A program made the translations under genes and the position numbers. Under the pieces are notes generated by a model that was given only the letters and a program-made list of their open reading frames with translations, made no database searches and was not told the DNA's origin. From a virus (taxonomy: Duplodnaviria > Heunggongvirae > Uroviricota > Caudoviricetes): a stretch of 64,000 bases of DNA. Positions 26,295 through 64,000 of this stretch are shown in pieces. The stretch lies in IMG/VR virus record IMGVR_UViG_3300028591_000002, positions 110,718 to 174,717 of that record; one strand, 5' to 3'. Position 1 is the first letter of the stretch. Every line of letters begins with the position of its first letter.

Positions 26295-26489
26295 AATATT
26301 TCAAAAAAAAATAAAAAAAAATGAGTGTTTCTGATAATGCTGTGTTTAGATTGTCTTAATATCTAGTCCAAGTTTAGATATATATTTCTAATCATTTAAC
26401 TTATTGCTACAAAGGAGAGGCCTTCTCCGTTCACTATCCTTGGTCTTTGTACACTATTTCAATGAAACACCAATTATCTAGTTTTTAGT

Positions 26490-26557
26490 TGCGAGGGTGG
26501 GAATCGAACCCACGAAGTCTAGCTTATGAGACTAGATGGAATACCAATTCTCCTCGC
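26490..26557 (-). tRNA. tRNA-Met(CAT), elongator-type
   Basis: Anticodon arm ctagt-ctCATaa-gctag, T-arm gtggg-ttcgatt-cccac; short or atypical D-arm (68 nt). Confidence 0.55.
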
Positions 26558-26564
26558 TATATAG

Positions 26565-26640
26565 TGGAAACACTTGGAGTTGAACCAAAGGCCTTTGGTT
26601 TTTCAGACCAACGCGCAACAACCACCTACGCTATGTTTCC
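26565..26640 (-). tRNA. tRNA-Phe(GAA)
   Basis: Anticodon arm ttggt-ctGAAaa-accaa; acceptor ggaaaca/tgtttcc. Confidence 0.85.
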
Positions 26641-26646
26641 AATTAG

Positions 26647-26730
26647 TGGGAGGGGAGGGACTCGAACCCCCAGTCCATTTAAGGAGTGGATTTACAGTCC
26701 ACGCGGCTACCAGTTACCGGTTACCCTCCC
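26647..26730 (-). tRNA. tRNA-Tyr(GTA)
   Basis: Type II, anticodon arm gtgga-ctGTAaa-tccac, acceptor gggaggg/ccctccc, discriminator A. Confidence 0.85.
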
Positions 26731-26865
26731 TTATTGTTAAGACTTGTTCCATCTTAACAATTCTTTCAACTATTTCGTTTTCGATGAAATAGTAAATTCG
26801 ACCTATTTTTAACAGAGATAGGTTTCTGCCTAGTACTTCTGCCCCGTACTAGTAGGGGAACAATG

Positions 26866-26939
26866 TGGAGCCAGTGAGACTCGAACTCACGACTTTTTGC
26901 GTGCAAAGCAAATGCTCTAGCCAACTGAGCTATGACCCC
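26866..26939 (-). tRNA. tRNA-Ala(TGC)
   Basis: Anticodon arm tttgc-ttTGCac-gcaaa; G3-U70 identity pair present. Confidence 0.85.
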
Positions 26940-27085
26940 TTAAACCAAATCTACAATATGAACACCGTATTATAAGATACGTACAATTCCCTACCTCAGA
27001 CCGTCCTTTGGGTTTCCACCAAAATCATTCTTGCTGAATGCCTCTTCCACTTATAGAGTCTTATACCTCTAAACCTCGATTTGGT

Positions 27086-27421
27086 TTATTTAATGTTCTT
27101 ACCAATTTCCATACCTTTTTTAAATGCTTCTTCTGGAGAAACATCATACGGTTTATCTCCAAAAATAGGGTGTGAACATTGATATGTATTATAAATTATA
27201 TCACAAGTTTCCTTGTCATAATATCCTGCAAAATATCCAAAGTTAGACTTTGCTATTTTTTCTGCTTCAGCATACGTATTAACTTCTTTATAAGTATTAA
27301 GGATATGTTCTACATACGCTTTAAAGAAACTTATAGCTTTGTTCTTATTAGTTTTTGCATAACGAAGTGCTTCATCAAACACTTTTCCAATTGTATTAAA
27401 TTCTTTTCCTTCGTAAACCAT
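27086..27421 (-). CDS. hypothetical protein
   Basis: 111 aa ORF. Confidence 0.45.
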   Translation of the reverse strand: MVYEGKEFNTIGKVFDEALRYAKTNKNKAISFFKAYVEHILNTYKEVNTYAEAEKIAKSNFGYFAGYYDKETCDIIYNTYQCSHPIFGDKPYDVSPEEAFKKGMEIGKNIK

Positions 27422-27451
27422 ATTACTTATAAAATTTTAAATGTTTATTTG

Positions 27452-27524
27452 TCGGGATAGCAGGACTCGAACCTACTCCGCTTGGTCCCAAACCAAGTAT
27501 GCTACCATTAAACACCATATCCCG
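27452..27524 (-). tRNA. tRNA-Pro(TGG)
   Basis: C1-G72 acceptor (Pro hallmark), anticodon arm cttgg-ttTGGga-ccaag. Confidence 0.85.
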
Positions 27525-27618
27525 AGTTACCCCTTCAAAGAAGGGGCTGGCTGTTGCATAAGCAACCGAAATGATTAATATATTTTTTTATATTTAAACT
27601 CAATCTTATCTTCGCAGA

Positions 27619-27963
27619 TTAGAAATGAGTCCATTTATTTTCTTCTTTATTATAATTTACTTTAGCTAATTTATATATCATATTTAAATCTTCAACCGAT
27701 TTAATAATCAAAAAATTAGAATTAAAATTATTTCCTAATTGTCCAGTAAAATTAAATTCATCGGAATACATCAAATTTGATACAATTACATTAGCATAGA
27801 TACCATCACCTTTTTCATAACGTTTAGTTAGTTTAGCTTCCCAAACATCAAAATCTATAACTTTCTCAATACATATATTGTATCCATTTTCTTCAAAATA
27901 TTTTCTAGTTAATTTTTCCATAATATATTTAATTTTTTGAGCCTCTTGTCGGATTCGAACCAA
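27619..27963 (-). CDS. hypothetical protein
   Basis: 114 aa ORF. The true start is probably the internal Met, which avoids overlap with the adjacent tRNA. Confidence 0.45.
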   Translation of the reverse strand: MVRIRQEAQKIKYIMEKLTRKYFEENGYNICIEKVIDFDVWEAKLTKRYEKGDGIYANVIVSNLMYSDEFNFTGQLGNNFNSNFLIIKSVEDLNMIYKLAKVNYNKEENKWTHF

Positions 27964-28013
27964 CGACCCCGAGATTACAAATCACGTGCTCTGGCCAACT
28001 GAGCTAAAGAGGC
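27940..28013 (-). tRNA. tRNA-Thr(TGT)-like (second copy)
   Basis: Perfect acceptor gcctctt/aagaggc, D-arm gctc..gagc, anticodon loop ttTGTaa with one U-U mismatch in the stem. Confidence 0.6.
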
Positions 28014-28151
28014 AGAAGCATACCCCCTAAGGAGTATGCCAAATACAATGAAAGTTTTTAACATCGTTGCTAACTTGTTTATTCTCACGAACCAACACGT
28101 TATATGGGTATTAACCCAATTTTTAAACTATGTTAGATAAAAATTATTTTA

Positions 28152-28751
28152 TTAAATATAATAATCATTTTTAAATCCCTGTGAATAATCAACATTTTCT
28201 CCAAATACAGGGTCAACATCTGTAACTTCTCCAGTTACAGCATCCACAAATAATTGATACTTAGTATTTCCAAAAATGTATTGTGGATTACATATATTCG
28301 GACCAATAGCTTTTCTTAATGTAATGTTTTTACTATGTGGTTTTGGATAATTGGATTCCATTAATTTGTTATATGCTTCCCTAAATGTTAATTTTATATC
28401 TGAATAATTAAGTGGGAAACATTCCATCCAAATACCGTTAATAGTTGTTTTTCCAGTTATATAATCAAAGATTACTACTTTTGGAGTATTTCCATTTACT
28501 TGAAAAACACTATTAATAGATTCAATGTTAAAATGTTCTACCTTATTCAAGGAATCCTTAAGAACAACTGTTGTATTATACCATACGAAGTTTTCTTCGT
28601 AAGAAATAAACATATCTTCCATATTGGTAGATATAAATTGTTCTGGAACAATTTGTTCAACATCATTGGAAATAGGTTTATTCTTCTCACAAGATGTGAA
28701 GGATAGCAGAAATACTGCTAAAATTGCAAAGATTTTAATAAAATTCTTCAT
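28152..28751 (-). CDS. lipoprotein
   Basis: Signal peptide plus lipobox LSFTSC. Confidence 0.55.
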   Translation of the reverse strand: MKNFIKIFAILAVFLLSFTSCEKNKPISNDVEQIVPEQFISTNMEDMFISYEENFVWYNTTVVLKDSLNKVEHFNIESINSVFQVNGNTPKVVIFDYITGKTTINGIWMECFPLNYSDIKLTFREAYNKLMESNYPKPHSKNITLRKAIGPNICNPQYIFGNTKYQLFVDAVTGEVTDVDPVFGENVDYSQGFKNDYYI

Positions 28752-28757
28752 ATTTTT

Positions 28758-29831
28758 TTATTTAAATAATGAAATTATTACACAACGTTGGGAAGTTCTG
28801 GTATTTGCACCCATTCCTTCTAATTTATTAATTTTAACTCCCTTATTAGAAAGATAATCTGCAACTGCCTTTGCTCTTTGTTCAGAAAGAATCTTATTAT
28901 ATTCTGGATTAGAAGAGTCTTCAAATGAAGAATATCCAAATACATTTACAATTGAATTTTCTCCAATATGTTTAACTAATCTATCAAGAATATCTTTGGA
29001 ATTATCATCAAGCTCCGAACTATTAAAAGCAAATGGAACAAAGAATGGATTTCCAGTATTATGAATTATTTCCCTTACAATAGTCTTTTCCACAACATTT
29101 GGTCTTGGAGGACGTCTATTTTCCAATTCTTTGATTTTTGCTTCATAATATCCAATGTCGTATGTCTTGAAATTATGAGTTCCATTAGATGTCTTAAATT
29201 TATGAACAAATGTTACTCTAGGTTCAAGTTGTGCTCTATTTTTATTAAATTGTAATTGGTCACCATTATTAGAAATTTTCCACAAGACATCAGCTCCAAC
29301 CTGTAGTGCATTAGCATCACTTAGATTAAATCGTACTGCAGCTCCTGTCTTAATACCAAATGCATTATTATCTTTGCGATGTGGTATATAGGCATGAGCA
29401 TAATCGACACCACCTCTTACAAAGAGTTCTGCTTTATGTGGTTTATTAAAATATGGATACAAAATATTAGTAACATTAGTAGTACCAAATAATCCTACAC
29501 CTACTCCCCGAACCGCATTATGAGCATAGGGATGGTCGAAACGATTAGTAATTCTGTTATGATTTGCATCAAATAACTGTGTACTATTACTTCCGAACCA
29601 TAAATCACCCTCAATCTCAGCACCAAATATAGGATCGAACTGCTTACCTAATACAAGATGTCCCATTGGATTTACTGGGAATACCTTATTAAAAGTAAGA
29701 GGAGTTGCTACACCAGCACCTACACCTGCATACCAGTTATCCATGAAATTAGTTGAACTTGTTGCAATTTGGGCATTGCTTGCCATGAAAATTCCTAAAG
29801 TAAGGAATAAAGATAAAATAAATTTCTTCAT
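28758..29831 (-). CDS. OmpA-family outer-membrane protein (beta-barrel plus OmpA C-terminal-like domain)
   Basis: Signal peptide MKKFILSLFLTLGIFMASNAQ; C-terminal ...NPEYNKILSEQRAKAVADYL... resembles the OmpA/MotB peptidoglycan-binding motif. Confidence 0.6.
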   Translation of the reverse strand: MKKFILSLFLTLGIFMASNAQIATSSTNFMDNWYAGVGAGVATPLTFNKVFPVNPMGHLVLGKQFDPIFGAEIEGDLWFGSNSTQLFDANHNRITNRFDHPYAHNAVRGVGVGLFGTTNVTNILYPYFNKPHKAELFVRGGVDYAHAYIPHRKDNNAFGIKTGAAVRFNLSDANALQVGADVLWKISNNGDQLQFNKNRAQLEPRVTFVHKFKTSNGTHNFKTYDIGYYEAKIKELENRRPPRPNVVEKTIVREIIHNTGNPFFVPFAFNSSELDDNSKDILDRLVKHIGENSIVNVFGYSSFEDSSNPEYNKILSEQRAKAVADYLSNKGVKINKLEGMGANTRTSQRCVIISLFK

Positions 29832-29871
29832 TTTACATTAAACATTAATTAATTAATAAAAAAATCTAAAG

Positions 29872-29943
29872 TAGGGCCAGTAAGATTCGAACTTAACACC
29901 AGCAGAGTCAAAGTCTGCTGTGCTACCATTACACCATAGCCCT
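29872..29943 (-). tRNA. tRNA-Gln(TTG)
   Basis: Anticodon arm gcaga-ctTTGac-tctgc; D-arm tggtgtaatggtagcac. Confidence 0.85.
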
Positions 29944-29957
29944 GCTTTTTTAAAGAG

Positions 29958-30112
29958 TATCTACTGTAAGAGTATCTACTGTTAAAGTATCTGCCGATAG
30001 TGTATCTACTACTGATTCTACTGAATCATTTTCTTCTTGTACTGGGGAATAACCACTTCCAGTACAACTAGCCAGTGCAACAATTGCTGCAATCAAAATT
30101 AATTTTCTCATG
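29958..30112 (-). CDS. small lipoprotein with DTLTV repeats (about 51 aa)
   Basis: Own translation MRKLILIAAIVALASCTGSGYSPVQEENDSVESVVDTLSADTLTVDTLTVDTL; lipobox LASC; coding repeats agtatctactgt. Below the ORF-track size cutoff. Confidence 0.4.
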
Positions 30113-30113
30113 T

Positions 30114-30584
30114 CTAAGTTTTTAAATGTTTCATTACTTTATTATAATATGCTTGTGTTCCCTTTACAGTATATCCAGCACCACCATTCCAAATTCTAAT
30201 AGCTTTTTCAACACTATTAGACTTATTATACTTCATCATATAGATAATGAACATTTCAATAGATTTCTCTTTGTTATATCTATCTTTTAAAGTAAATCTT
30301 TTCTTATAACCCAAACTCTTTAAGTAATTGTTACAATCTACAACTAAAGCTGGTCCTATTTGCAAATAACCCACATACTTACCACTTTTACTGACTGCTT
30401 GGGTATTCAAACTCGACTCTACTCTGGCTATAGCTGTAATTACAGGGCCCCAGTAATTACTTTTGTGAACAATTTCCTTATTGAAAGGTATTTCTAAGGA
30501 ATCTGTAGTGTGTCCTTTAAGAGATAACGTACATATTACAAGTGTAATGCATAATAAAAGTTTTTTGAAATTAAATAGTCTCAT
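30114..30584 (-). CDS. lytic transglycosylase (SLT/lysozyme-like domain), secreted
   Basis: AIARVESSLN...GYLQI matches the SLT catalytic-Glu region; signal peptide. Confidence 0.7.
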   Translation of the reverse strand: MRLFNFKKLLLCITLVICTLSLKGHTTDSLEIPFNKEIVHKSNYWGPVITAIARVESSLNTQAVSKSGKYVGYLQIGPALVVDCNNYLKSLGYKKRFTLKDRYNKEKSIEMFIIYMMKYNKSNSVEKAIRIWNGGAGYTVKGTQAYYNKVMKHLKT

Positions 30585-30633
30585 ATTCTCTCAGTTTAAT
30601 ATGTTATTAATAAATTGGGAGGATGGAAGTTGT

Positions 30634-30703
30634 GCTACGTTTTGGAATCGAACCAATTATAGAGAATTTAAAATACTCTGTGTTACCATTACACCATACG
30701 TGC
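30634..30703 (-). tRNA. tRNA-Gln-derived tRNA with UUA anticodon (ochre/amber-suppressor-like), possibly degenerate
   Basis: Body nearly identical to tRNA-Gln(TTG) at 29872 (tggtgtaatggtaacac). Anticodon arm gagta-ttTTAaa-ttctc with one U-U mismatch. The acceptor stem pairs over only 4 bp. Confidence 0.45.
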
Positions 30704-31003
30704 TAATCAAAATTACGTTTCTTATTGAAGAACAAATATATTAATTTTTTCTTTCCTAAAAAAATAATTTTTGTTAAAAAAATAGAAGAGAAATATTAAA
30801 GATACCTCAGCTTTAATTTTCCCTTCTATTGTTGGTATTTTTACCCCGTAGCATGATTATGGTATGCCCTTACCACCAACGCTTCATGTTGAACATTGGA
30901 GAAAGTCAACATCTTTGTAGATTGATGTAAACTGAGGTAGTATTTAGATTATTAAGGGGAAAGGTTATACTTTACTACATTTTTTTACCTTTCCCCTATA
31001 AAA

Positions 31004-32995
31004 TTATTTTACCTCTTCAAACTCGGAAGAATCTTTTTCTTCTTTGTCATCCTTTGGAAGTTCTTTGTTTTCAGCAGTAGGAAGTGTTCCCTTAAAGAGC
31101 TTCTGGAACTGACCCTTAACTCCACTATTAATCATGTCAAGAGATGGAGCAAAGGCCGCAATGAAACTCTTAGCAAACTGTGCACCAGTATTACTATCAC
31201 CATAAACAGAAACCTGACCAAGCTTGATATTCTCAAGAACCTTAGATTGTGCTGCAGCAATTCCTTCATAATGCTCAGTCATCTTGAACTGAACAAAGAG
31301 ATCAGGATTTCCTCCAAATGCATCTACCATTTCTCGAAGAGCAACTGCAGGAGCCATTTCTCTCTTCTGATATGCATCTGCTTCTGCAAACAAACGAGCT
31401 CTTTCACCTTCAGCTTCAGCAAGTTTAACTTGTTTAGTACCTTCAGCTTCTGCAAGCATTGTCATACGAGTTGATTCTGCCTTAGCTTCAGCCTCCTTAA
31501 GAATTCTTTGCTTTACTGCTTCTGCTTCAAGGATGGCTTTTTCTTTGATTGCTTCTGCTTCAATAATTGTCTTCTTCTTAGCCTGTTCAGCTGGAATAAT
31601 TTCATCAGCTTTTAATTTAGCTTCAACTGCTTTAGCTTCAGCTTCATTAACTTCAAGCTGACGTTGTTGCTTAGTCTTAGCTGCAGTCATATCTGCCTCA
31701 ATCTTAGCAACCTGAACAGTCTGGTCAGCATCAGCTTCTGCTTTACCTGCTTTTGCACGTGCTTCTGCAACCAAAATCTTTGCATTTTGTTCTGCTACAC
31801 CTGCATCTTGGTCTGCTTTTGCTGCACGAATCTTCTTTTGTGATGCATATTCAGCAGTTTGTGCTTCTTTCTCTTGAGTTGCTTTAGCAATTGCAGCTTC
31901 CTTTTGTTGATTAGCCTGCTCAATACGAGTTTGTTTAGCAGCTTCTTTCTCATTTTCAGTAGCTTCAGCATCTGCTTTAGCAGCGGCTATAGCTTTACGC
32001 TGAGTTGCTTCAGAATCTGCTTTAGAAGATTCTGCTTTTGCTTTCTGTTCTGCAACGGCAGCAACCATACGTGCTTCAGCTTCTGCTTTCTTAGATTCTG
32101 CATCTGCTTCAGCATTAGCTACAGCAGCAGTCTTAAGAGCTTCTTGAGTAGCAATACCAGATTCTCTCTCTTTTTCAATCTCAGCTAATTGTACTTGCTT
32201 TGCTCGTTGAGTATCAGCAATCTGAGTTTCCTGGTTTTTCTCAATTTCTGCTACTTTAATAGCTTGCTCTTGTTTAGTTTGAGAAACTGTAATTTCTCTT
32301 TGTTTATCAGCTTCTGCAACATTAATTTCTTGCTCTTGATAAATCTTTGCCTTTCTTACTTTTCCATCCTTTTGCTTTTCAGCAATGTCAGCTTCTGCTT
32401 GTGCTCTAGCATCGGTTTCCTTCTTCTTACTCAAGTTATTGATGATATCTTGTTCATCAGCTACCTCTCGAATATTGATATTAAGGATTACATAACCCAC
32501 CTTAGCTAATTCTATACTCAAACTCTTATTAACTTTATCTTGGAATTCCTCCCTATTAGAGTTTAAGTCTTCTACAGTCATAGTAGCTACTACCAATCTT
32601 ATGCTACCATCTACAATAGTCTGCAATACATTTTCTATTTCATCTTGATCAGAGCTTAAAAAACGCATTGCAGCATTTGGTTGTATTTCTGAATCTGAAG
32701 AAATAGCAGTAGTTAAAGCAGTATTAACTCTGGTTTTAATTTTATTTATATCAGGACTTATGATGTTTGAAGTAATTTGAATAGGCCGCATAGACATAGT
32801 TTTGTAGTCCTGAATAACAGGCCATACAAATACACCACCTCCAGGATAAAGTTTAGCAGCAGATTTACTGCCTACTTTACCATATACTACCATAAGTTGG
32901 TCACTTGGACATTTTCTATAACGAGAAAGAAGTCCTACGATGGTTGCTATAATAAGAAGAACAACCACTGCTGTAATAATTAAACTTGAATACAT
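31004..32995 (-). CDS. SPFH/band-7 (flotillin-like) membrane protein with long Ala/Glu/Lys-rich coiled-coil
   Basis: N-terminal TM helix, SPFH-like region, then about 300 aa of EA/KA heptad-like repeats; 663 aa. Confidence 0.75.
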   Translation of the reverse strand: MYSSLIITAVVVLLIIATIVGLLSRYRKCPSDQLMVVYGKVGSKSAAKLYPGGGVFVWPVIQDYKTMSMRPIQITSNIISPDINKIKTRVNTALTTAISSDSEIQPNAAMRFLSSDQDEIENVLQTIVDGSIRLVVATMTVEDLNSNREEFQDKVNKSLSIELAKVGYVILNINIREVADEQDIINNLSKKKETDARAQAEADIAEKQKDGKVRKAKIYQEQEINVAEADKQREITVSQTKQEQAIKVAEIEKNQETQIADTQRAKQVQLAEIEKERESGIATQEALKTAAVANAEADAESKKAEAEARMVAAVAEQKAKAESSKADSEATQRKAIAAAKADAEATENEKEAAKQTRIEQANQQKEAAIAKATQEKEAQTAEYASQKKIRAAKADQDAGVAEQNAKILVAEARAKAGKAEADADQTVQVAKIEADMTAAKTKQQRQLEVNEAEAKAVEAKLKADEIIPAEQAKKKTIIEAEAIKEKAILEAEAVKQRILKEAEAKAESTRMTMLAEAEGTKQVKLAEAEGERARLFAEADAYQKREMAPAVALREMVDAFGGNPDLFVQFKMTEHYEGIAAAQSKVLENIKLGQVSVYGDSNTGAQFAKSFIAAFAPSLDMINSGVKGQFQKLFKGTLPTAENKELPKDDKEEKDSSEFEEVK

Positions 32996-33520
32996 TTAAA
33001 TAAAATAATTTGAGTTTTTAAATTCCTTAATTGTAACTATATCTCCTGTTTCTAAATGTTCATTTTTAGAAAGAGCAATCTCTTCTATTAATCCTAAACC
33101 ATTGAAGAAGGTTATAACGTATTTGTAAAAACCATCTTCTGTTTTATTGCCTTGATGAGACATATAAACAGTAGCGGATTTTCCTACTAAATCTTCTCCA
33201 ACTAAAATTTCAGGAGAGTGTTCCAATTTAAGAGTTAATTTATATATGTAGTAAAGTATAAACATGAAGATAATTCCTACTAAAACAGCTATAGCATAAC
33301 TATACCAAGCAACTGTTCCTGCTAAAGTTAGCCAAGTAGAGAATCCCATTGCAAAATGAGTAATTCCTTTAAAGGAGAATAAATCTCCTAAAGAGAAATC
33401 TACATCTGTATCTAAGTCAATGTCTACATCGATATCTCCTGCAAAGAGAGACATGATAAATTGTATTATAAAGATAGAGTAGGATACTATACCTACAATA
33501 TGATACCAGAGTAAAATCAT
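32996..33520 (-). CDS. NfeD-like membrane protein (partner of the SPFH protein)
   Basis: Polytopic TM N-terminus plus a C-terminal soluble beta-domain, immediately upstream of and abutting the SPFH gene. Confidence 0.6.
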   Translation of the reverse strand: MILLWYHIVGIVSYSIFIIQFIMSLFAGDIDVDIDLDTDVDFSLGDLFSFKGITHFAMGFSTWLTLAGTVAWYSYAIAVLVGIIFMFILYYIYKLTLKLEHSPEILVGEDLVGKSATVYMSHQGNKTEDGFYKYVITFFNGLGLIEEIALSKNEHLETGDIVTIKEFKNSNYFI

Positions 33521-33619: not shown

Positions 33620-34276
33620 TTATTTCTAAGTCATTATCGATGTAACTCCTATATCATAATTAGAACCTAACAAATCTTTTAAAGGGTCTTCCATTATATT
33701 CCCATGAAAGTTATGTCTAACTACCCAATCTTTTCCATTATGTAATAAGATTCCTGTATGAGTTCCTTGAGAGTATGAATTTCCTTTTCTTGATTTATAA
33801 TCCCAAGGACTTAAATTAACATACATATTAGCTACATAAGATTGTTTAGGATTTAACTTACTTATATCAAGTTTCTTTTTTAAATTTTCTGCTGCATCTA
33901 AATTATAAGAATAATGATTCTAATAGGAATTACCCTTTCTATCTTTTAAAGTAATTCCTTCATAACCATTTATATAAGGTTTAACATAATCATGAGTCCA
34001 AGCATTTCCCCCTTTTTCTCTTTTAAAATATTTATTTACAAAGTGGGCACATTGTGGACTTGTATGTTTCTAACCTGTAGGATGCATTCGATATCTTTTT
34101 CTACCTCGTGCATCTGAGTATTCTGGAGGTGCAGGCATCATTATCCCATGCATTGAAGCTCTTTTTAAAGGATTTGCTGGAGTTAACATATCTGCATATC
34201 CAGAAGCTTTCTAAATAATATTTTTTATTGCACTAAGAACATCACCTCCAAACGAATATTTATTAATTTTATTCAT
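33620..34276 (-). CDS. hypothetical hydrolase-like protein; gene contains 3 in-frame TAG codons (TAG-recoded)
   Basis: Own translation of the minus strand gives a continuous frame of about 215 codons ...MHPTG(TAG)KHTSPQCAHFVNKYF...SQGTHTGILLHNGKDWVVRHNFHGNIM... ending at TAA 33620-33622. The ORF track sees only the last 66 aa (33626..33826). The start coordinate is approximate because of the display gap. Confidence 0.55.
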
Positions 34277-34850
34277 AAGCAATTAATACTGTTTTATCGT
34301 TTTCACATTCATGACTCATACAATATTTTATAGCATTATAGGTATGCCAGCTCACTGCAAAACATCCTTCACTTGCTTTTGTGAGTGGAAAATTCATACC
34401 AGGAATATTAAATGGAAGTAACGAAGCCATAAGACTGGAATGAATGTAAATTCCTCTTTCTTCTGCATTTGAATTTGTTTCACTCCAACCTTTAAGTTTG
34501 ATGGCTTCTTCTCCATTTTCCATTCTTACAATTCCTTCCAAAGTATAAGTACCTAGTGAAGAGCATTTACTACCTATTTCATTACTGAACTCTGGTTTTG
34601 AAGAAGTACTTTTTCCACCATAACCATGTAAACATACTCCTGAGTAAATCAAGTGAGCATCAATAGAAACATCATAGATAAACAGTCTATCTTCACAAGA
34701 TGGTTTAGAGAAATCCACATGTATTTCGTAGGTACGAAAATTTGGAACTTCATCTTTTATAGGAGTCCATTCTGGTCCTTTGGGAACACAGAAGGAAATG
34801 ACTATGCCTGCAATGAAAGCAATTATAAGATATTTTAATAGTTTATTCAT
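34269..34850 (-). CDS. YkuD-like L,D-transpeptidase-fold protein, secreted
   Basis: N-terminal TM/signal; ...IYIHSS...TKASEGCFAVSW resembles the YkuD His...(S/T)xGC motif. Confidence 0.5.
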   Translation of the reverse strand: MNKLLKYLIIAFIAGIVISFCVPKGPEWTPIKDEVPNFRTYEIHVDFSKPSCEDRLFIYDVSIDAHLIYSGVCLHGYGGKSTSSKPEFSNEIGSKCSSLGTYTLEGIVRMENGEEAIKLKGWSETNSNAEERGIYIHSSLMASLLPFNIPGMNFPLTKASEGCFAVSWHTYNAIKYCMSHECENDKTVLIAYE

Positions 34851-35439
34851 TTTTATATAAATTTAACAATTTTAAATTGTATTTACAGTAATCACAAAGT
34901 TTAAATTTATTTTTAAAATTCGCTTTACCTTTAGCATCTTTCATTATACATGTCTCAACATCTTTAGAACAATGTGAAACACAATAATATGTATGTATAA
35001 ATTCGTGAATTATTACTTTCCAATAATCTCTATTTTTATTTTTTAATCTATAATCTGAAACTACACAAGTATAAGTATTAAGAATTGAAAGTCCTAAAAT
35101 TCCCCAATCATCATGATTTCTTAATGTAGTTGAAATATCATCATGTAATAATCCAATTATTATATGTTTTTTAGATGCTTTTTGCTTATACTTATTTATA
35201 ATTTTATTTCCTCTATATCTTGAATGATTTACATTATATAAATCATCAGAAAGATTTTGAGGAGATTTTATTATAAATACCGGATTTAAATTTAATTCAT
35301 TTGTTATAAATTCTTTTAATTTAGGAACTAACTCTTTAATTTCATTAATTTTAAAATTATTATATGGTTGTAGTTCTACAATTATTTTTTCATTTATAAA
35401 AGAATTTAATATTATATATGCTATTAAAATTAGTTTCAT
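34843..35439 (-). CDS. zinc metalloprotease (HExxH)
   Basis: IIHEFIHTYYC contains HEFIH; signal peptide; 8-nt overlap with the downstream gene. Confidence 0.55.
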   Translation of the reverse strand: MKLILIAYIILNSFINEKIIVELQPYNNFKINEIKELVPKLKEFITNELNLNPVFIIKSPQNLSDDLYNVNHSRYRGNKIINKYKQKASKKHIIIGLLHDDISTTLRNHDDWGILGLSILNTYTCVVSDYRLKNKNRDYWKVIIHEFIHTYYCVSHCSKDVETCIMKDAKGKANFKNKFKLCDYCKYNLKLLNLYKNE

Positions 35440-37208
35440 ATTCTATTATTATAATAGGCTTTTATCATTTTTCCTTTACTGTTCATAATACTATCAGGAT
35501 TATTTTCTCCCCAAGACATTTGCATTTTTCCATTCTTTTCTATTAATTTATTACCCTAAACTTCTGGAAGAACATATACTGTATCATTGTCATTTAATAT
35601 TTTATCATTGTACAAATGAGACATAACTCCACAATCTGGAGAAACACATCCATATGAAACTCTTTTAGATGCTTTAGAATTTTTTAATGCTTGTAATCTA
35701 CTATTACTTGCTGGACTATGTAATGCCTATCCTATTTTTCCAGGAGAATCTGGATACATTATAAACAAAGGTTCTTTTCCTAAATAGTTACTATTAGCTC
35801 TACTTTCTAAAGTAAATACTCCAGCACCAGTAGTACGTGGAGAATCTGATAAATATTTAGCATCACTATTAACCATCATATCTCCAACATTTTTTCCTAA
35901 TGTAATTGGATGTTCTTCCAAAAGTTTATCTTTTTGATAAATCTATAATTTTTGATTTACTTTATCTATTACACCGTATCTATCATTAACATTGTATTTT
36001 GATTTATGGTCCAGTATAGCCTAAAGTCCAGTATTAGGGGAATCTTCAATTTCTTTAGCTGGCTTAAATAATTTACTAATAAAAGAAATATTTGGAAACA
36101 TAGAAGACTTAATAATCTAAGGTTCATTTATCTATTTCTATGTAGATTTTCTACTAGCAGCTTCTTTTGCCATAGCTTGTCTAGTTTTAGGACCCATAAT
36201 TCCATCAACCGCTTGTTCAAAAGTAGTTCCTTCATCATAGAAGCCTCCTTTAAAAAGTCTTTCTTGAAGTCCTGCTACATTTTCAACATAATTATTTCTT
36301 CTTCTTGATTCTTTTTTAACTGCCTTATCTCTAACAGTCTTTTCGTTTTGAACTTTAGAATCTACATTATTTAAATGTTTATTAAGTGTATTATTCCAAC
36401 GAGATTCTAAATTAGTTTCATTTTGTTTTTGTTCTTCTTGAACTTTTTTCTTTTCTTCAGCATATTTTTTGAAATAATTAAACTTATCTCCATTCTATGC
36501 TTTTATTAGTCCACCTTCCTAAAAGAAAGCATGGTATATATCATTTCCTATCATACCCAATCCAAATCCATTTGAAAATTTTGAAAAATTAGACTTTTGT
36601 AATCTATTTAATCTATTTGCAGTTTTTGCCATAGGTTTAGCTAAAGGTTTATAAGCTTTTGCTCCGACTTTTGCAAGTTTACCAAGACCTCCAATAAAAG
36701 GTAATATAAAAGCCGCATCAGTTAATCCTTCTTTCCATCTTCCTTTTCTAAAATTTTTAATGGCATCATATCCAGAGATTAAAGAACCTACTGGAGTGAA
36801 ATAAGGAAGAGATTTTATTATTCCTGAAGTTAAAGCTCCTGCTATTCCTGAATTTTCTAATCTCTATAAATTGTCATCTAAACCTAATTTTTTAGCTATT
36901 CCAATTACAATATTGGCAGATAAACCTTCATCTTCTTCAGGGGTATTTTGTCCAGCATTTCTAGATACTAAACCTTTTTTTGATAATAATTTCTAACCAG
37001 CACTTGTGATTCCTTTGCTATCTTTAATTTTAATAGCTGTTCCATCTGAATTTAATTGATACTAATCTCCCAAATCATCTGTGGAAATTACACCTAATCC
37101 AATCTTCTTTCCATCTTTCTTCCAGACACCTTTTCCAAAGTAACCTTTATTACTTTTGTATCTTTCTGAGGTATCAAAGTAATAACCTTTCTAATATTTT
37201 TTAACCAT
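35436..37208 (-). CDS. peptidoglycan-binding-domain protein with YkuD-like C-terminal region; 11 in-frame TAG codons (TAG-recoded)
   Basis: Own translation: ATG at 37206-37208, 591 codons, only TAG occurs in frame, terminates at TGA overlapping the ATG of 34843..35439. Contains ...FEQAVDGIMGPKTRQAMAKEAA (PG_binding_1-like) and ...RVSYGCVSPDCGVMSH (YkuD-like). Invisible to the standard-code ORF track. Confidence 0.65.
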
Positions 37209-39830: not shown

Positions 39831-39859
39831 AAATTTAAATATATTAATAAATTAAGTAG

Positions 39860-39931
39860 TGTGTTCGCTGGGACTCGAACCCAGGCCTCTCGCATTAAAA
39901 GTGCGATACTCTACCACTGAGTTACGAACAC
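39860..39931 (-). tRNA. tRNA-Lys(TTT)
   Basis: Acceptor gtgttcg/cgaacac, anticodon arm tcgca-ctTTTaa-tgcga. Confidence 0.85.
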
Positions 39932-39986
39932 ATCAGGAGATACGCAATGTACCCAGAGAATTTCACCCTATATCTCTGTTAACTAG

Positions 39987-59000: not shown

Positions 59001-59265
59001 AGAAACAGCACAAGCCTTAAATGCTATTCATATTTTGGATAGAAATTTTACAGACTTATTAAATCAATGTAACGAAGTGCGAGAAGAAATTCAAGCACTT
59101 CGTTTAGAAAATGAAAAATTAAAACAAGAAATTAAATCCTTAAAATTGCCCTATGGTGTAACGGCTAGCACAGGTGGCTCTAACCCATCTGGTCTGGGTT
59201 CGAATCCTAGTGGGGCGACCAATACAGAAAAAGATGATAAAATTTTTAATGAAAGTACTGGTTAA
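58993..59265 (+). CDS. hypothetical coiled-coil protein (the 3' part is probably not coding)
   Basis: The N-terminal 50 aa look coiled-coil. The remaining frame runs through the suppressor tRNA (the GSNPSG-type translation is typical of tRNA sequence), so the true end is uncertain. Confidence 0.25.
   Translation: MFKETAQALNAIHILDRNFTDLLNQCNEVREEIQALRLENEKLKQEIKSLKLPYGVTASTGGSNPSGLGSNPSGATNTEKDDKIFNESTG
59147..59221 (+). tRNA. tRNA-Sup(CTA): amber suppressor, Gln-derived, with genomically encoded CCA
   Basis: tgcccta-tg-gtgt-aacggcta-gcac-a-ggtgg-ctCTAac-ccatc-tggt-ctggg-ttcgaat-cctag-tggggcg-a-cca. D-arm like tRNA-Gln at 29872; anticodon CTA at 59180-59182. Confidence 0.8.
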
Positions 59266-59452
59266 ACTCTTACAAAAATTATGTAACAAAATTATTAAAC
59301 GTAGTAAACTTGTTGATAAAACTGTAAGAGAATTCAATTTAGAAAATGAACAATGGTTCATAAATTGGCAAGATGAATTAAATGCAATTAGCGTAAAATA
59401 AAAAAGGTGAGCATCAAACGATGTTCACCTTTTTTCGTATTAGTCCACCTAA

Positions 59453-60595
59453 CTATTTCTTAGGAATTAATTTTATACCTTTCTTTGCTTTATTAATTTG
59501 TTTATTACCAAATGTTAATGGAATCAATGGAATTAAACCATATCTAATATCAGGATTACTAAAATTATCTCTTAATCCTAAAGGTATTCTAATACCATTG
59601 TCATCATAAGTTACTGCATCTGCAAGTTTTACTCTTCCAGATTGAGGAGGAACTATAAATGCATCTGTCCAACGTTCATTTTTTACTAAACCAGAGCCTG
59701 CCCAGTCTTTTTCTATATCTAGAGCATTATACCCTTTAGAGTCTAAAAATCTACCAATAGCTCGTTTTGCTTTTATAGCTTCTGTTTTCCAATCCTTTTT
59801 AAATGCTTCTTCAAATGCTTCTGGATTTTTTCTATATTCCAAAAGATATTGTATTCTAGTTTTTAGTTCTTCTGGCAACATTTGCAATAATTCCTTTTTA
59901 TTTTCTACTTTTAAGGGATTATTAAACTTAACATTTAAAGGTATTTGATATTCCCCAAATCCAATAGGTCTATTTGTACGTTTAGTAAATATTCCGAAAG
60001 GAGATAAAACATCTTTAGAAGAGTGTTTACCAAATGCACTGAAAGTATTAAATGGTTCTTTAGTTTCATGAAAAAATCCAGGAGTATAACCTTTGATAAT
60101 TGTATGTAAATCTCTTAATCTTTGAGCTTCTATCATATCTCCTCTTGCAATAGCAACATCTTGTACTGCTGTCCATTGTTCTGGAGTTTGTGGAAGTTTT
60201 ATAAAACTAGTTCCTTCAAAAGTTTTAACTAAACCGTCTTTATCTAAATAATATAAGACACCTTTATTTCCTGGAAGAAATCTAGGATCTCTAGCTAATC
60301 GCTATAATCCAGCTACTGTACCTCTTGTAGCTATATAATCAATTGAGTTAGATTCTGGAAATAATATTTCCCCACCTTCTGGAATTTCTTTATAAGCAGC
60401 ATCAAATAATGCCTGCTTTTCTTCTTTAGTTATTTTTCCAGGAATTTTTTCTCCATCCCAAACCCTCATATGAACTCTATATTGATTAGGATTTGGATTC
60501 TCTATTACAAACTCTCTAGGTCGAAGTTTAGTATGTGTTGGTAACCGGAGTCTTGTTATATAAGGTTCTAATATTTTAATTATTTTATTATTCAT
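59453..60595 (-). CDS. hypothetical structural/late protein, TAG-containing (joins ORFs 60302..60604 and 59453..60136)
   Basis: Own translation: the frame of ORF 60302..60604 continues through the TAG at 60302-60304 and a further TAG at 60245-60247 into 59453..60136 without TAA/TGA; ATG at 60593-60595. Confidence 0.55.
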
Positions 60596-61517
60596 AATTT
60601 CCAATTCCTACTACAGTAGCAATAACTGGAGCAGTTTTTAATAATGTTTTAAGATAAGGAACAAACTAATCTTTTAAAACTTTTTTACCAAAAAATCCAT
60701 AAGCATTACCATAAGTATTAAGTCCCATTAAATCATTAATAACGTTTGCTTCAGGTAAACTATCAACATAATCTTCAAAAAGTTTTCTATTCTATTTTAT
60801 AGATAAATCTTTTTGTCCTTTAGGATTATTAAATGCATATTTTCTAATTAATTCACCTATAGTAGACCTAGCTTCTTCTGGAAGTAATGAGTCCTCATTA
60901 AAACTATGAGTATTATTATAAGCTAATTTTAAATCTTCTAATTCTTTAGAATCTTTAAAAATTTTATTTATAAACTCTTTATATATATTATTATCTCCAG
61001 ATAATTCTCTATAAATATCATCTGTTCCATGCATATTTCTTTCATGGAAAATAATAGATGGAACATTTTTTAGAGTTCTTTGAGTAGGGTCTATAAAAGC
61101 TACTCCAGACTTAGGAAAATACGTACCCCCAACACCTTCTTCATTAAAATAACCTAAATAAGTAGGTTTTTTAAAATTATCTTCTAATATAAATTTCCTA
61201 GGAATAATTCCCTTTTCTCCTAAAGGTTTATCTAAATCATATCCTAAAGCTTCTAATCTTCTTATGGTTTCTTTTGCATGGGTTTTATTAAATCCCAAAG
61301 TATCAATTTCATACAAAGGATTAAAACTTTCCTATAAGGCTAAAGCTTTTACATTTTCAGGTAATTCTGTAATTTCTTTAGGATTTAGATATTCTTTATA
61401 TTTTGAAGCATGTTTTTCTACTAACTATTTAAAAGGAATTTGTTCTAAACCTTTACTGGTCATTGTATATTCTGGAACTCTAGATATTAATTTAAAAATA
61501 GTTTTAAATTTGCTCAT
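60588..61517 (-). CDS. hypothetical late protein, TAG-containing (includes ORF 60792..61316)
   Basis: ATG at 61515-61517 preceded by aaggagg at 61529-61535; translation MSKFKTIFKLISRVPEYTMTSKGLEQIPFK(TAG)LVEKH... runs through several TAGs into ORF 60792..61316 and ends at TAA 60588-60590, overlapping the next start. Confidence 0.55.
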
Positions 61518-61547
61518 AAATAGTTTTTCCTCCTTTTTTAGTAGCTT

Positions 61548-63053
61548 TTAAAATTTGATTCTTTTTAGTAGTTCTTCCATCCTAAAAAGATACATGAATC
61601 CAATCATAATCAAATTCATTAATTAATTGTTTAACTACAATTTCTCCTTTTAAAATCATAGATTTAATTAAATCAAATAAGACTTTATTATCTCTTTTAG
61701 AATCACTTACACTTCTAATATCAGCTGCATTTCCATAACAATGGTCACTAGTTATAGAACCTCCAACTTTTTGATTTAAAAGTTTACATCTAAATCCAGA
61801 AGATACTACTATTGATTTACCATACTTATCTCTTATAGGTTGTAATACAATCTAACATAACTTCTTTAAATTCTCCTATTGCTATTTATTTGGGGTATTA
61901 TTAATTCCCAATCTTTTAGCAGTAGGAGAATTTATTAATTCCTCTAAAGTAAAATTCTTAGTTAATAACATTTTGGAACTAATTTATATAAGGTACCTCC
62001 ATTACGATAACCTCTATTTAACATTACTCTAAATCTCTTTCTATCACTTCCACCTACTGAACCATGTATTCCAAGTTGGTTTAATTTCTATAAAGCTTCA
62101 GTTTGATTCCAAGAAGTTATTCCTAATCTATTCATAACAGCTTTCTTTAATTCTGCATCATCTTCAACAGCTCTAACTAATCCAACAGTATCTTTTACTC
62201 CTTTAGATTTAAACATTCTTCTAATATCTTTTCTAGATTGTAATGGATAATCAGAACTACTCTAAGAAGAAGAAACGTTAGTATTCTGTTGAGCTTGTTG
62301 GGTAGGTTGTAGTCTATTTATGATAGATGGATTTATCTATTGTGGAGCAGTTTCTATACTCTAGTTTCCTTCTGAAATAGGTCCATATTCTTGTGGAGAA
62401 GTTTCAACTATTTGAGGATATTCTCCAAAATCTCCATTTTCAGTACCTTCAATTTCCTCTTCTCTAGAACCTGAATGAGCAAGTAAAGGATATAAAGCTG
62501 TAGCTCCAGCTGCTGCTGCTGCATAAGGCCAAGCTCTTTTCCAAAAAGCTTTCTTTGGAACTATTTTTTCTACTGCCTTTTTTCCTGTTTTACCAGCACT
62601 TTTAGCAACTAGAGCGGTTTCCTTTTTAGCAACTGGAACTAATGCTTTCCCTTCAGGAACTCTAGTATTACTTCCAAAAGATTGTTCAAATCTTTGTGCT
62701 GGAACTTTTCCAGATTGTCCAGGAACCCAACCTTTCTATATTGCTTTATCTGCTTTTCCTTTAAATATTTTATTCAAAGCATTATTATAAGCTTCCTAAT
62801 ATTCTGGAAGAACATTTCCATTTCTACGTATTGCTGATTCTAATGCTTTTATTTCTTTAGCATCTGTTATTCCTAAATCTTCAAAAGTAATTCCACTCTT
62901 TTTTAATGCTTTATATACTTTTTTCCATTCAGGTAAATTTGACATTCCTTTTAATGCTTCTTCAAAAGCACTTAATTTACTACTAGCTTTTACTGAATTT
63001 TTAATAGCTACTTTAGCTATTCTACCCCAATGGGCTTTTGGTATTAATTTCAT
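61548..63053 (-). CDS. hypothetical late protein, TAG-containing (includes ORF 62796..63053)
   Basis: Starts at the ATG of ORF 62796..63053 (in-frame TAA just upstream); the frame continues through multiple TAGs (…GNVLPEY(TAG)EAYNNALNKIFKGKADKAI(TAG)KGWVPGQSGK...) to TAA 61548-61550. Confidence 0.5.
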
Positions 63054-63069
63054 ATGTTATAAAATTTGT

Positions 63070-64000
63070 TTGCATATTTTGCTCTTTGAATATAATTACC
63101 ATGATTTGGATTCTAAAAACCTTTAAACCTTTCAAAACCATAGCCAAAAGCATGAGAAGCTTCTCCCACTGTTTTAGCATTTCTTAAAGCCTATAAAGTT
63201 TTAGCATATGGACCATTTAATTCATTCCAAAGATAATTTAACTACGTATCTAAATCTGTCCACTTATCTCCTCCAAACTTCTTTAAGTTTGATAATCTTC
63301 CTGCATGCCACTAAGCAATACCTGCAGATGTTCCTTTGTCTCCATAAATATGGGTCCTAAATCCAGATTCTGCATAAAGGTTTCCCATAATTCCTGCAAC
63401 GGCTTCTCTAGAAAGTCCTTTACTTAAAAAGAAATTTTTAATTTTTTGTGCAGAATTTTTTGGAGTACTAATCTTAACTTCAGTATTAGACTAAGGTGTA
63501 GTAGTCTACTAAGGAATCTACTAAGAAGTCTATTGCTCAGTCTAAACAGTTGGAAATTCTACAGGAGGCATTTGAGAAATTATATATCTTCTTAATGGTG
63601 GAGTAGAACTCTAAACATTAAGATTTGGAAGATTTATTTCAGGCTATTCTACATCAATATTTTCAAATATAGAACTTAAATTTAAACCTGTCTATCCTTT
63701 CAATATTCCTCCAAACTAATGTTTCCATTTTCTTGCATTTGCAGCAAAAGTTGCTCTCTTAACTAAAGTAGGATTACCAGAAGCTTTAGCTCTAGAAATA
63801 CAAGCATTAGTTACTTTTCCTCCACAATAATCTGTAAACTTACCTCTATTCTTCTTTTTAATATGAATTCCTCCTTTTTTAAGGAATGGAATATGATATA
63901 AGTCTTGGAAAGAAGTAAAAGAATTCAAATTTTTATCTTCTTTCTTAGAGGCATTACTTAATAACTTTAAATTTTTACGATTATTTATCATCATTATAAT
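63070..64000 (-). CDS. hypothetical late protein, TAG-containing, 5' end beyond the window (includes ORF 63716..63994)
   Basis: The frame of ORF 63716..63994 continues leftwards through TAG codons; the 3' boundary is approximate (display gap in line 63601). Confidence 0.35.

What the first reader, a model, noticed from the sequence alone, without database searches (positions are those of the whole stretch)
33620..37208. Stop-codon reassignment: in-frame TAG codons in long minus-strand genes (alternative genetic code, probably TAG to Gln)
Translating the minus strand by eye gives a 591-codon frame (35436-37208) with 11 in-frame TAG and zero in-frame TAA/TGA. It starts at ATG and ends at TGA, overlapping the next gene's ATG. 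A second frame of about 215 codons (33620-34276) has 3 in-frame TAG. The same pattern continues in the 59.5-64 kb block. A random AT-rich sequence would not keep a 1.7-kb frame free of TAA/TGA while carrying 11 TAG, so TAG must be sense. These genes encode recognisable domains (PG-binding, YkuD-like). The standard-code ORF track reports only fragments of them. Phages of Bacteroidota (crAss-like, Lak) are known to use TAG to Gln in late genes, but each case needs demonstration.
Basis: partly seen in the sequence, partly recalled or inferred. Interest (0 to 1): 0.9.

Follow-up and report, generated by a model that had tools for sequence, protein, structure and literature searches.

The report
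TAG read as glutamine in phage
This stretch of an uncultured, AT-rich gut-type phage reads the stop codon TAG as glutamine in a handful of cell-wall-degrading genes and carries its own suppressor tRNA for the purpose; this is real but is a further example of a trick already documented in gut phages.

Summary
The minus-strand frame 35436-37208 (591 codons, ATG to TGA) has 13 in-frame TAG, not 11, and no TAA or TGA. Frame 33620-34276 has 4 TAG, not 3. Five more ORFs at 59414-64000 carry 2-15 TAG each. Chance is excluded (P about 6e-20).

TAG encodes glutamine. Two TAGs in the Phage_lysozyme2 domain fall on columns that are 95% and 97% Gln in about 150 diverse homologues, and are CAA/CAG in cultured standard-code phages. 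Relatives interchange TAG with CAA/CAG at conserved Gln columns. A Gln-type tRNA with anticodon CUA lies at 59147-59221.

Only 7 of about 100 ORFs are recoded; three have recognisable cell-wall domains (M15 peptidase, tail lysozyme, L,D-transpeptidase-like) and four have no assignable function. Replication genes have no internal TAG. About 9 genes seem to end at TAG.

This matches published "code 15" gut phages (crAss-like, Lak, phAss-1), so it is a new member of a known kind. Interest is modest.

Side finds include a GOLLD-like RNA, a hammerhead ribozyme, a tmRNA, a Ro60-like gene with a tRNA-like RNA, and a His-derived tRNA with a UUA anticodon.

The parts
35436..37208 (-). Recoded gene of 590 aa with 13 in-frame TAG. 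The N-terminal module is shared with relatives. It is followed by a weak PG-binding-like segment and a C-terminal L,D-transpeptidase (YkuD)-like domain with an SYGCVS motif.
33620..34276 (-). Recoded gene of 218 aa with 4 in-frame TAG. It has no Pfam or PHROG assignment. It is 33% identical to an internal domain of the 822-aa relative encoded in L024.
59414..60595 (-). Recoded gene of 393 aa with 2 in-frame TAG. Function unknown.
60588..61517 (-). Recoded gene of 309 aa with 4 in-frame TAG. Function unknown.
61504..61971 (-). Recoded gene of 155 aa for an endolysin-type Peptidase_M15_3, with 4 in-frame TAG.
   Evidence: Pfam E 3e-18. Ten standard-code homologues read through all four TAG positions.
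61962..63053 (-). Recoded gene of 363 aa with 6 in-frame TAG and a Gln/Ser-rich linker. Function unknown.
63050..63994 (-). Recoded gene of 314 aa with 15 in-frame TAG and a C-terminal Phage_lysozyme2 (tail lysozyme) domain. The TAGs at codons 228 and 251 sit on near-invariant Gln columns.
   Evidence: Pfam E 1.5e-30.
59147..59221 (+). Suppressor tRNA with anticodon CUA and an encoded CCA end. It is Gln-type and lies on the opposite strand to almost all genes, in a small plus-strand island that converges on the 3' end of the recoded block.
   Evidence: ARAGORN; Rfam 51.3 bits.
29871..29943 (-). Ordinary tRNA-Gln(UUG). Of the window's tRNAs it is the closest to the suppressor (69% identity, same D-arm).
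30108..30584 (-). Example of a non-recoded gene (SLT transglycosylase) whose only TAG lies where orthologues have their stop. It is followed one codon later by TGA.

Best explanation
The window is part of an uncultured, AT-rich (about 30% GC) tailed phage with relatives in pig-gut and other metagenomes. In a minority of its genes, TAG is decoded as glutamine by a phage-encoded amber-suppressor tRNA-Gln(CUA). Seven genes in two clusters (33.6-37.2 kb and 59.4-64 kb) carry 48 in-frame TAG. Three of them have recognisable cell-wall domains: an M15 endolysin-type peptidase, a tail lysozyme, and an L,D-transpeptidase-like protein with a weak PG-binding signal. The other four have no assignable function. 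The replication and nucleotide-metabolism genes at 1-23 kb, and most other genes, have no internal TAG and can be translated by an unmodified host. About nine of them even seem to end at TAG. The likely working is as follows. Without the suppressor tRNA, the recoded genes give only truncated products. Once the tRNA is made and charged, presumably by the host GlnRS, full-length proteins appear. The codon would then act as a post-transcriptional gate on wall-degrading or virion proteins. What is shown: TAG is sense, TAG means Gln, a matching tRNA is present, and the recoding is gene-specific. What is inferred: the timing, which enzyme charges the tRNA, how competition with release factor 1 is resolved, and any regulatory benefit.
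For: The frames are closed only by TAA/TGA, with P about 6e-20. Code 15, but not code 4, restores coding density from about 0.4 to 1.0 in both blocks. In the Phage_lysozyme2 domain, two TAGs align with columns that are 95% and 97% Gln across 164 domain hits from the best 150 of 7338 homologues. Those columns are CAA/CAG in the five cultured standard-code phages checked and in the uncultured human-gut phage csAssE-Sib, and the first of them is Q in the phi29 gp13 chain (PDB 3csr), which has E at the second. In relatives of the 590-aa gene, TAG and CAA/CAG interchange at conserved Gln columns. For example, the invariant LQE column is CAA/CAG in the window, L004, L023 and the standard-code relative L025, and is TAG in L001, L005, L024 and L026. 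The 48 TAGs are spread evenly along the seven genes (KS p 0.84). The tRNA(CUA) is closest to the window's tRNA-Gln. It is 93% identical to amber-suppressor tRNAs in at least 120 IMG/VR viral contigs, and 82-87% identical to features annotated tRNA-Gln in crAss-like phages. The gene-specific pattern recurs in relatives L001, L005, L023 and L024. The same pattern is described in the literature: recoding of structural and lysis genes with standard-code replication genes (bioRxiv 10.1101/2021.08.26.457843), peptide proof of TAG as Gln in crAss-like phages (PMC9523058), and code 15 in Lak phages (PMC6784885).
Against: No expression or peptide data exist for this phage. No RF2, GlnRS or other code-change gene was found among the ORFs scanned in these 64 kb. 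Several wall-related genes (SLT 30108-30584, YkuD_2 34269-34850, OmpA 28758-29831) are not recoded, so 'lysis genes are recoded' is not a clean rule here. Four of the seven recoded genes have no assignable function. Most TAGs fall in variable columns, where the amino acid cannot be read from alignments. The database homologues of the 590-aa gene were themselves translated with TAG as Q, so only the codon-level comparison and the standard-code homologues are independent evidence.
Confidence: 0.88

Rival explanations
1. The TAG-interrupted frames are decaying pseudogenes or assembly errors, and TAG is still a stop.
For: Under the standard code the ORF list shows only fragments of these genes.
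Against: Only TAG interrupts the frames: 48 TAG against 0 TAA/TGA. An independent assembly has the same TAGs. Orthologues in several diverged phages are also TAG-rich but at partly different positions. Catalytic motifs are intact. A matching suppressor tRNA is present.
Confidence: 0.01
2. TAG is sense but encodes another amino acid, such as pyrrolysine (as ARAGORN labels the tRNA), Glu, Lys, Trp, Tyr or Leu.
For: Most TAGs lie in variable columns where homologues carry E, K, S, T or N. ARAGORN labels CUA as 'Pyl' by default.
Against: The two informative columns are 95% and 97% Gln and are CAA/CAG in standard-code phages. Gln was as frequent a partner of TAG columns as Lys (20 vs 21 columns), ahead of every other residue. 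The tRNA is Gln-like. No Pyl synthesis or PylS domains were seen in the Pfam scans. In recoded genes CAG has almost vanished (2, against 48 TAG and 54 CAA), as expected if TAG took over from CAG.
Confidence: 0.04
3. TAG is fully reassigned throughout infection, or the host itself uses code 15. There is no temporal switch, and the C-terminal TAGs in 'non-recoded' genes are simply Gln codons.
For: Timing cannot be tested here. One clearly recoded gene (33620-34276) also has a TAG two codons before its TAA. The shorter distance to a back-up stop is only marginal (p 0.05).
Against: In non-recoded genes, 10 of 18 TAGs lie in the last 13% of the ORF (KS p 0.002), whereas they are spread evenly in recoded genes. 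In the SLT gene the TAG sits where orthologues have TAA or TGA. About 90% of genes avoid internal TAG altogether. The published cases infect standard-code hosts (10.1101/2021.08.26.457843).
Confidence: 0.12
4. Read-through depends on the second unusual tRNA (anticodon UUA, 30632-30704), acting as an ochre/amber suppressor instead of, or together with, tRNA(CUA).
For: ARAGORN and Rfam both call it a tRNA. A U34 anticodon could in principle read both UAA and UAG. Its anticodon stem shows two compensatory changes relative to its orthologues.
Against: It scores only 35 bits in Rfam. It has a U-U mismatch in the anticodon stem and mismatches in the acceptor stem. It is the positional orthologue of tRNA-His(GUG) in L023 and L024, so it may be a decaying copy. 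No convincing in-frame TAA was found. The only cases are abutting genes that happen to share a frame. TAA is the main terminator, with 52 of 73 TAG-free genes ending in TAA.
Confidence: 0.05

Closest known systems
Code-15 (TAG to Gln) crAss-like phages (Crassvirales), validated by metaproteomics (PMC9523058; 10.1101/2021.08.26.457843)
   Same: In-frame TAG read as Gln. A phage-encoded tRNA(CUA) of the same Gln-like type, 82-87% identical to tRNA-Gln features of cr53_1, cr60_1 and cr7_1. Recoding concentrated in structural and lysis genes while replication genes stay in the standard code. Low GC and a probable Bacteroidota host.
   Different: No crAss hallmark gene lies in the window. Shared proteins are only about 25% identical. 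The window holds about 28 tRNA genes plus a tmRNA. Only about 7% of the ORFs here are recoded.
Lak megaphages of Prevotella (PMC6784885)
   Same: Code 15 used only in some regions. Many tRNAs, some with insertions. Several kinds of suppressor tRNA. Large intergenic regions and very low GC. The M15 peptidase's best match in the phage collection is Lak-A1/Lak-B5 at 48-49% identity.
   Different: The Lak-A1 orthologue of the M15 gene has no TAG. Other window proteins do not have Lak phages as best hits. No RF2 was found in the window. Genome size is unknown.
phAss-1 / proposed Phassvirus and related human-gut phages (PMC10607447); phage csAssE-Sib (OR575929)
   Same: Phages of about 136-151 kb; phAss-1 has 36 tRNAs, suppressor tRNA-CTA genes and TAG at conserved Gln positions. 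csAssE-Sib also encodes a flotillin, a Ro60-related protein and a tail lysozyme.
   Different: Only 25-41% protein identity, and no nucleotide match. In phAss-1, 28% of ORFs are recoded, including terminase and portal.
TGA to Trp (code 4) recoded gut phages (Agate and Jade clades; 10.1101/2021.08.26.457843)
   Same: The same proposed logic: a suppressor tRNA plus recoded late and lysis genes in a standard-code host.
   Different: A different codon and amino acid. Code 4 gives no gain in coding density here.
Classical amber suppressor supE, a tRNA-Gln(CUA) of E. coli (from established knowledge)
   Same: A tRNA-Gln derivative with anticodon CUA that inserts Gln at UAG in competition with RF1.
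   Different: supE is a weak mutant host allele. Here the tRNA is a conserved phage gene family found in at least 120 viral contigs.

Membership tests
Stop-codon-recoded (code 15, TAG to Gln) bacteriophages | Long conserved ORFs interrupted only by TAG, with coding density clearly higher under code 15 than under code 11. The published rule is a gain of more than 10% for contigs of 5-100 kb (PMC9523058). | tested here: met
   48 in-frame TAG and 0 TAA/TGA in seven genes. Density rises from 0.70 to 0.82 overall and from about 0.4 to 1.0 in both blocks. Code 4 gives no gain.
Stop-codon-recoded (code 15, TAG to Gln) bacteriophages | TAG positions align with glutamine in homologues that use the standard code. 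| tested here: met
   Two lysozyme-domain TAGs fall on columns that are 95% and 97% Q. Those columns are CAA/CAG in the five cultured standard-code phages checked, and the first of them is Q in phi29 gp13. TAG interchanges with CAA/CAG among relatives, including the standard-code L025.
Stop-codon-recoded (code 15, TAG to Gln) bacteriophages | A phage-encoded suppressor tRNA with anticodon CUA. | tested here: met
   59147-59221 (+): ARAGORN and Rfam at 51.3 bits. It is Gln-like.
Stop-codon-recoded (code 15, TAG to Gln) bacteriophages | Recoding confined to a subset of genes (structural and lysis), with replication genes compatible with the standard code. | tested here: met
   AAA_24, DnaB, helicase, RNase H and PurA-like genes have no internal TAG. 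The recoded set includes an M15 endolysin-type peptidase, a tail lysozyme and a YkuD-like protein. Expression timing was not tested.
Stop-codon-recoded (code 15, TAG to Gln) bacteriophages | Low GC, with TAG depleted as a terminator. | tested here: met
   GC is 0.26-0.42, mostly about 0.30. Terminators are TAA 52, TGA 20 and TAG about 9.
Stop-codon-recoded (code 15, TAG to Gln) bacteriophages | Peptides spanning TAG with Gln at that position. | not testable with these tools
   This needs proteomics of virions or infected cells.
Stop-codon-recoded (code 15, TAG to Gln) bacteriophages | Accessory code-change genes (RF2, GlnRS). These occur in some lineages only and are not obligatory. | tested here: not met
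   No RF or aaRS domain was found among 73 minus-strand ORFs of 90 aa or more. The rest of the genome was not seen.
Lak megaphages | A genome of about 540 kb, a Prevotella host, and broad protein similarity to Lak genomes. | tested here: not met
   Only the M15 gene has Lak as its best hit, at 49%. Other proteins point elsewhere. Genome size and host cannot be tested from this window.
Crassvirales | crAss-type hallmark genes (major capsid, portal, terminase, giant RNA polymerase). | not tested
   None of these was recognised in the window. Helicase similarity to cr106_1 is only 25%.
Amber-suppressor tRNA-Gln(CUA) | A cloverleaf tRNA with anticodon CUA that is charged with Gln. | tested here: inconclusive
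   The structure and anticodon are met. Similarity to tRNA-Gln is 69% within the window and 82-87% to annotated phage tRNA-Gln. Charging cannot be tested here.

The most novel reading that the evidence does not exclude
TAG may have two meanings in this phage. It would terminate about nine genes that have no internal TAG, each backed by a TAA or TGA a few codons downstream to limit read-through once the suppressor is active. It would encode Gln in seven wall-degrading or virion genes. That would make the window a compact natural example of a timed code switch with built-in damage control. A second, His-derived tRNA with anticodon UUA could add a further layer of stop-codon suppression.
Probability: 0.2. 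Interest if true: 0.5.

Novelty: new member of a known kind. Interest (0 to 1): 0.3.

Why it matters
In practice, any annotation of this phage with the standard code will shatter its endolysin-type and tail-lysin genes, so code 15 must be used for at least these blocks. Biologically, it adds a lineage, distant at the protein level from the recoded phages in the collection searched here, to the list of gut phages that gate wall-degrading or virion genes with a stop codon and a portable tRNA-Gln(CUA). The tRNA is 93% identical to copies in phages that share almost none of the window's proteins, which suggests that the suppressor moves between phage lineages. The mix of TAG-terminated and TAG-recoded genes in one 64-kb stretch makes this a convenient test case for the code-switch model, if a host can be found.

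Tried and rejected
- Megablast of 28-40 kb against 50,697 phage records gave no match.
- MT835492, the best helicase relative, shares only the replication module and has no suppressor tRNA.
- The word-indexed homologue search with the short lysozyme domain gave only 4 hits. The exhaustive representative search replaced it.
- The M15 alignment was uninformative for amino-acid identity, because all four TAGs fall in variable columns.
- PHROGs and low-stringency Pfam gave nothing for four of the recoded genes.
A homologue alignment was used instead. It gave a low-confidence model overall (mean pLDDT 53), with a usable C-terminal domain.
- Rfam found no HDV-like or theta ribozyme next to the tRNAs.
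- TAA or TGA reassignment was considered and rejected.
- The sigma-70 promoter and terminator scan around the suppressor tRNA was no better than shuffled sequence, and it does not model Bacteroidota promoters.
- Cluster look-up could not show which representative homologues use the standard code, because nearly all are unnamed metagenome proteins. Cultured-phage homologues were used for that purpose.
Full report
**Observation**

Translating 35436-37208 on the minus strand gives 591 codons that start at ATG and end at TGA. The frame has 13 in-frame TAG and no internal TAA or TGA. The other two frames of the same stretch contain 24 and 70 TAA+TGA. The terminal TGA overlaps the ATG of the next gene as ATGA.

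The second frame, 33620-34276, has 219 codons and 4 TAG.

A map of all TAA/TGA-delimited ORFs shows five further consecutive minus-strand ORFs at 59414-64000, with 2, 4, 4, 6 and 15 in-frame TAG.

At the composition of this gene, the chance of 589 codons without TAA or TGA is about 6e-20. The longest such run in 20 shuffled windows was 134-262 codons.

Re-calling ORFs with TAG as sense raises coding density in both blocks, while TGA as sense changes nothing:

| Region | Code 11 | Code 15 | Code 4 |
|---|---|---|---|
| 33620-37208 | 0.38 | 1.00 | 0.38 |
| 59414-64000 | 0.45 | 1.00 | 0.48 |
| Whole window | 0.70 | 0.82 | 0.71 |

A 3-kb contig from another assembly (L004) is 97% identical over the first 339 residues of the 590-aa gene. 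It has TAG at the same six positions, so the codons are not assembly errors.

**Which amino acid TAG encodes**

The most informative gene is 63050-63994, whose C-terminus is a Phage_lysozyme2 domain (Pfam E 1.5e-30).

- An exhaustive profile-free search found 7338 homologues.
- I aligned the best 150 locally. The TAG in GIA[TAG]W falls on a column that is 95% Gln. The TAG in DT[TAG]L falls on a column that is 97% Gln. The other two domain TAGs lie in variable columns.
- Many database proteins come from metagenomes, and the database translates TAG as Q in recoded contigs. I therefore checked cultured standard-code phages.
- In Psychrobacillus phage Perkons, Staphylococcus phages Sb-1, SPbeta-like 2 and Lacachita, and Faecalibacterium phage FP_Lagaffe, both columns are CAA or CAG. 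The uncultured human-gut phage csAssE-Sib also has CAA at both.
- The solved phi29 gp13 structure has Q at the first column.

The focal 590-aa gene has 20 metagenomic homologues. Their DNA shows they are also TAG-rich, except L025, which has none. TAG and CAA/CAG interchange at conserved Gln columns. The invariant LQE column is CAA/CAG in the window, L004, L023 and L025, and TAG in L001, L005, L024 and L026. The xALHSPA column, three residues before the catalytic-type His, is TAG in the window and L001, and CAA in L005 and L026.

In the M15 peptidase (61504-61971; Pfam E 3e-18), the four TAGs lie in variable columns. None of ten standard-code homologues ends there.

In the seven recoded genes the counts are TAG 48, CAA 54 and CAG 2. 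In the other genes they are TAG 18, CAA 281 and CAG 90. This fits TAG having largely taken the place of CAG in very AT-rich genes (GC3 of 0.125 against 0.206).

**The decoding agent**

ARAGORN and Rfam find about 28 tRNA genes and a tmRNA in the window.

- One tRNA, at 59147-59221 on the plus strand, has anticodon CUA and an encoded CCA end.
- Among the window's tRNAs it is closest to tRNA-Gln(UUG) at 29871-29943, with 69% identity and the same D-arm.
- A pattern built from its D-arm and anticodon loop matched at least 120 IMG/VR viral contigs. The best of those tRNAs are 93% identical, with compensatory changes in the anticodon stem.
- In annotated phage records the nearest matches are features called tRNA-Gln in crAss-like phages (82-87% identity).
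- The proteins around those copies are unrelated to the window's, so the tRNA looks like a shared, mobile element.
- It sits in a small plus-strand island (about 58.66-59.40 kb) that converges on the 3' end of the recoded minus-strand block. I could not establish promoters or timing.

**Scope of the recoding**

Only 7 of about 100 ORFs of 60 aa or more are recoded, and their 48 TAGs are spread evenly along the genes (KS p 0.84).

The replication and nucleotide-metabolism genes have no internal TAG. These are the AAA_24, DnaB-like, helicase, RNase H and adenylosuccinate-synthetase-like genes.

In the remaining genes, 10 of 18 TAGs lie in the last 13% of the ORF (KS p 0.002). Nine genes therefore seem to end at TAG, with a TAA or TGA a median of 4 codons further on. 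After TAA/TGA terminators the median is 12 codons (Mann-Whitney p 0.05).

For the SLT transglycosylase gene (30108-30584), the end reads HLKT-TAG-ACA-TGA. Orthologues read HLKS-TAA and HLET-TGA. So TAG probably still terminates some genes. This is suggestive, not proven.

Relatives show the same all-or-none pattern per gene.

Not all wall-related genes are recoded. The SLT, YkuD_2 and OmpA genes are not.

**Function of the focal gene**

YkuD scores 20.6 bits against a cut-off of 23.4, and PG_binding_3 is below its cut-off.

An AlphaFold model of the homologue P0004 was built from 17 sequences. P0004 is 49% identical to the C-terminal half of the window protein. The model is poor overall (mean pLDDT 53), but pLDDT is roughly 50-90 (mostly above 70) in the C-terminal 200 residues. 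Its 50 best PDB matches are all L,D-transpeptidases, with the best E-values near 1e-4. The YkuD-like call therefore stands.

**Comparison with what is known**

The pattern matches the published picture of recoded gut phages. That picture includes low GC, rare TAG terminators, suppressor tRNAs, recoded structural and lysis genes, and standard-code replication genes (bioRxiv 10.1101/2021.08.26.457843). TAG as Gln has been proven by peptides in crAss-like phages (PMC9523058). It is also described for Lak megaphages (PMC6784885) and for phAss-1 (PMC10607447).

The window is not close to any of these.

- There is no nucleotide match in the phage collection.
- The best protein matches are 25-59% identical and are scattered over unverified human-gut contigs, csAssE-Sib, Lak, and Flavobacterium and Cellulophaga phages.

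I therefore class it as a new member of a known kind.

**Limits**

Timing, the charging enzyme, and the fate of RF1 competition are inferred. No RF2 or GlnRS gene was found in these 64 kb. Four recoded genes have no assignable function.

Noticed in passing
window 55186-55611 (-), inside the ORF-free stretch 52.7-56.4 kb: Rfam GOLLD RNA (RF02032) match covering the full model, at 95.3 bits and E 1.3e-24, which is below the curated cut-off of 150. It lies in a 3.7-kb stretch with higher GC (up to 0.42) that has no long ORF under any single stop-codon reassignment. This is probably a large structured phage RNA. The rest of the stretch is unexplained.
   Followed up: partly
window 53272-53330 (-): Type III hammerhead ribozyme match, at 39.4 bits and E 5.6e-6 (cut-off 48.5), in the same ORF-free stretch.
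   Followed up: no
window 30632-30704 (-): tRNA with anticodon UUA, which would read TAA and possibly TAG. It is the positional and sequence orthologue of tRNA-His(GUG) in relatives L023 and L024. Compared with them it has two compensatory changes in the anticodon stem, but also a U-U mismatch there and mismatches in the acceptor stem. Rfam gives only 35 bits. It is either a retargeted tRNA or a decaying copy. No in-frame TAA use was found.
   Followed up: partly
window 43805-43972 (-) and 43989-45656 (-): A 555-aa Ro60/TROVE-like RNA-binding protein (phrog_850, E 3e-21; similar to annotated Ro-like proteins of other phages). Immediately downstream on the same strand lies a 168-nt tRNA-like element with an insertion of about 95 nt (Rfam tRNA, 40 bits). 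This could be a Y-RNA (YrlA-type) partner.
   Followed up: partly
window 23198-30704, 39859-40061, 45965-46621, 49174-49258: A very large tRNA complement of about 28 genes, nearly all on the minus strand, plus a tmRNA at 24317-24601 (72.5 bits; tag AEIDYFNMAA). Oddities include a tRNA with a 10-nt anticodon loop (46431-46507), an anticodon ATT (45965-46037), and an 88-nt 'Asn-GTT' tRNA with a long variable arm (25948-26035).
   Followed up: partly
window 8385-9530 (-) and 9530-10417 (-): An adenylosuccinate-synthetase homologue (Pfam E 9e-33). It and its downstream neighbour both match a gene pair in Rhizobium, Vibrio and Mycobacterium phages, where the first gene is annotated '2-aminooxy adenylosuccinate synthetase' or PurA-like. 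A role in modified-base synthesis was not examined.
   Followed up: no
window 35436-37208 compared with L004, L023 and L024: Domain shuffling. The N-terminal 339 residues are 97% identical in L004, which then continues with an unrelated C-terminal domain. In L024, an 822-aa relative combines the same N-terminus with a domain homologous to the separate window gene 33620-34276.
   Followed up: partly
window 3732-4646, 4648-4983, 13249-13446, 14580-14903, 15454-15876, 17188-17652, 20042-20440, 30108-30584, 57832-58392 (all -): Genes whose only TAG lies within the last 1-26 codons, followed by an in-frame TAA or TGA. They probably terminate at TAG and have nearby back-up stops (median 4 codons against 12 in controls, p 0.05).
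   Followed up: partly
window 40600-42100: A second stretch of about 1.5 kb without convincing ORFs under any code. Rfam finds nothing there.
   Followed up: partly
window 31004-32995 (-) and 32996-33520 (-): A 663-aa flotillin/Band-7 protein with a long Ala/Glu/Lys-rich coiled region, abutting a small membrane protein in the same frame. The pair is conserved at 47-69% in pig-gut relatives, and the flotillin at 51% in an IMG/VR contig. This is an unusual cargo for a phage.
   Followed up: no
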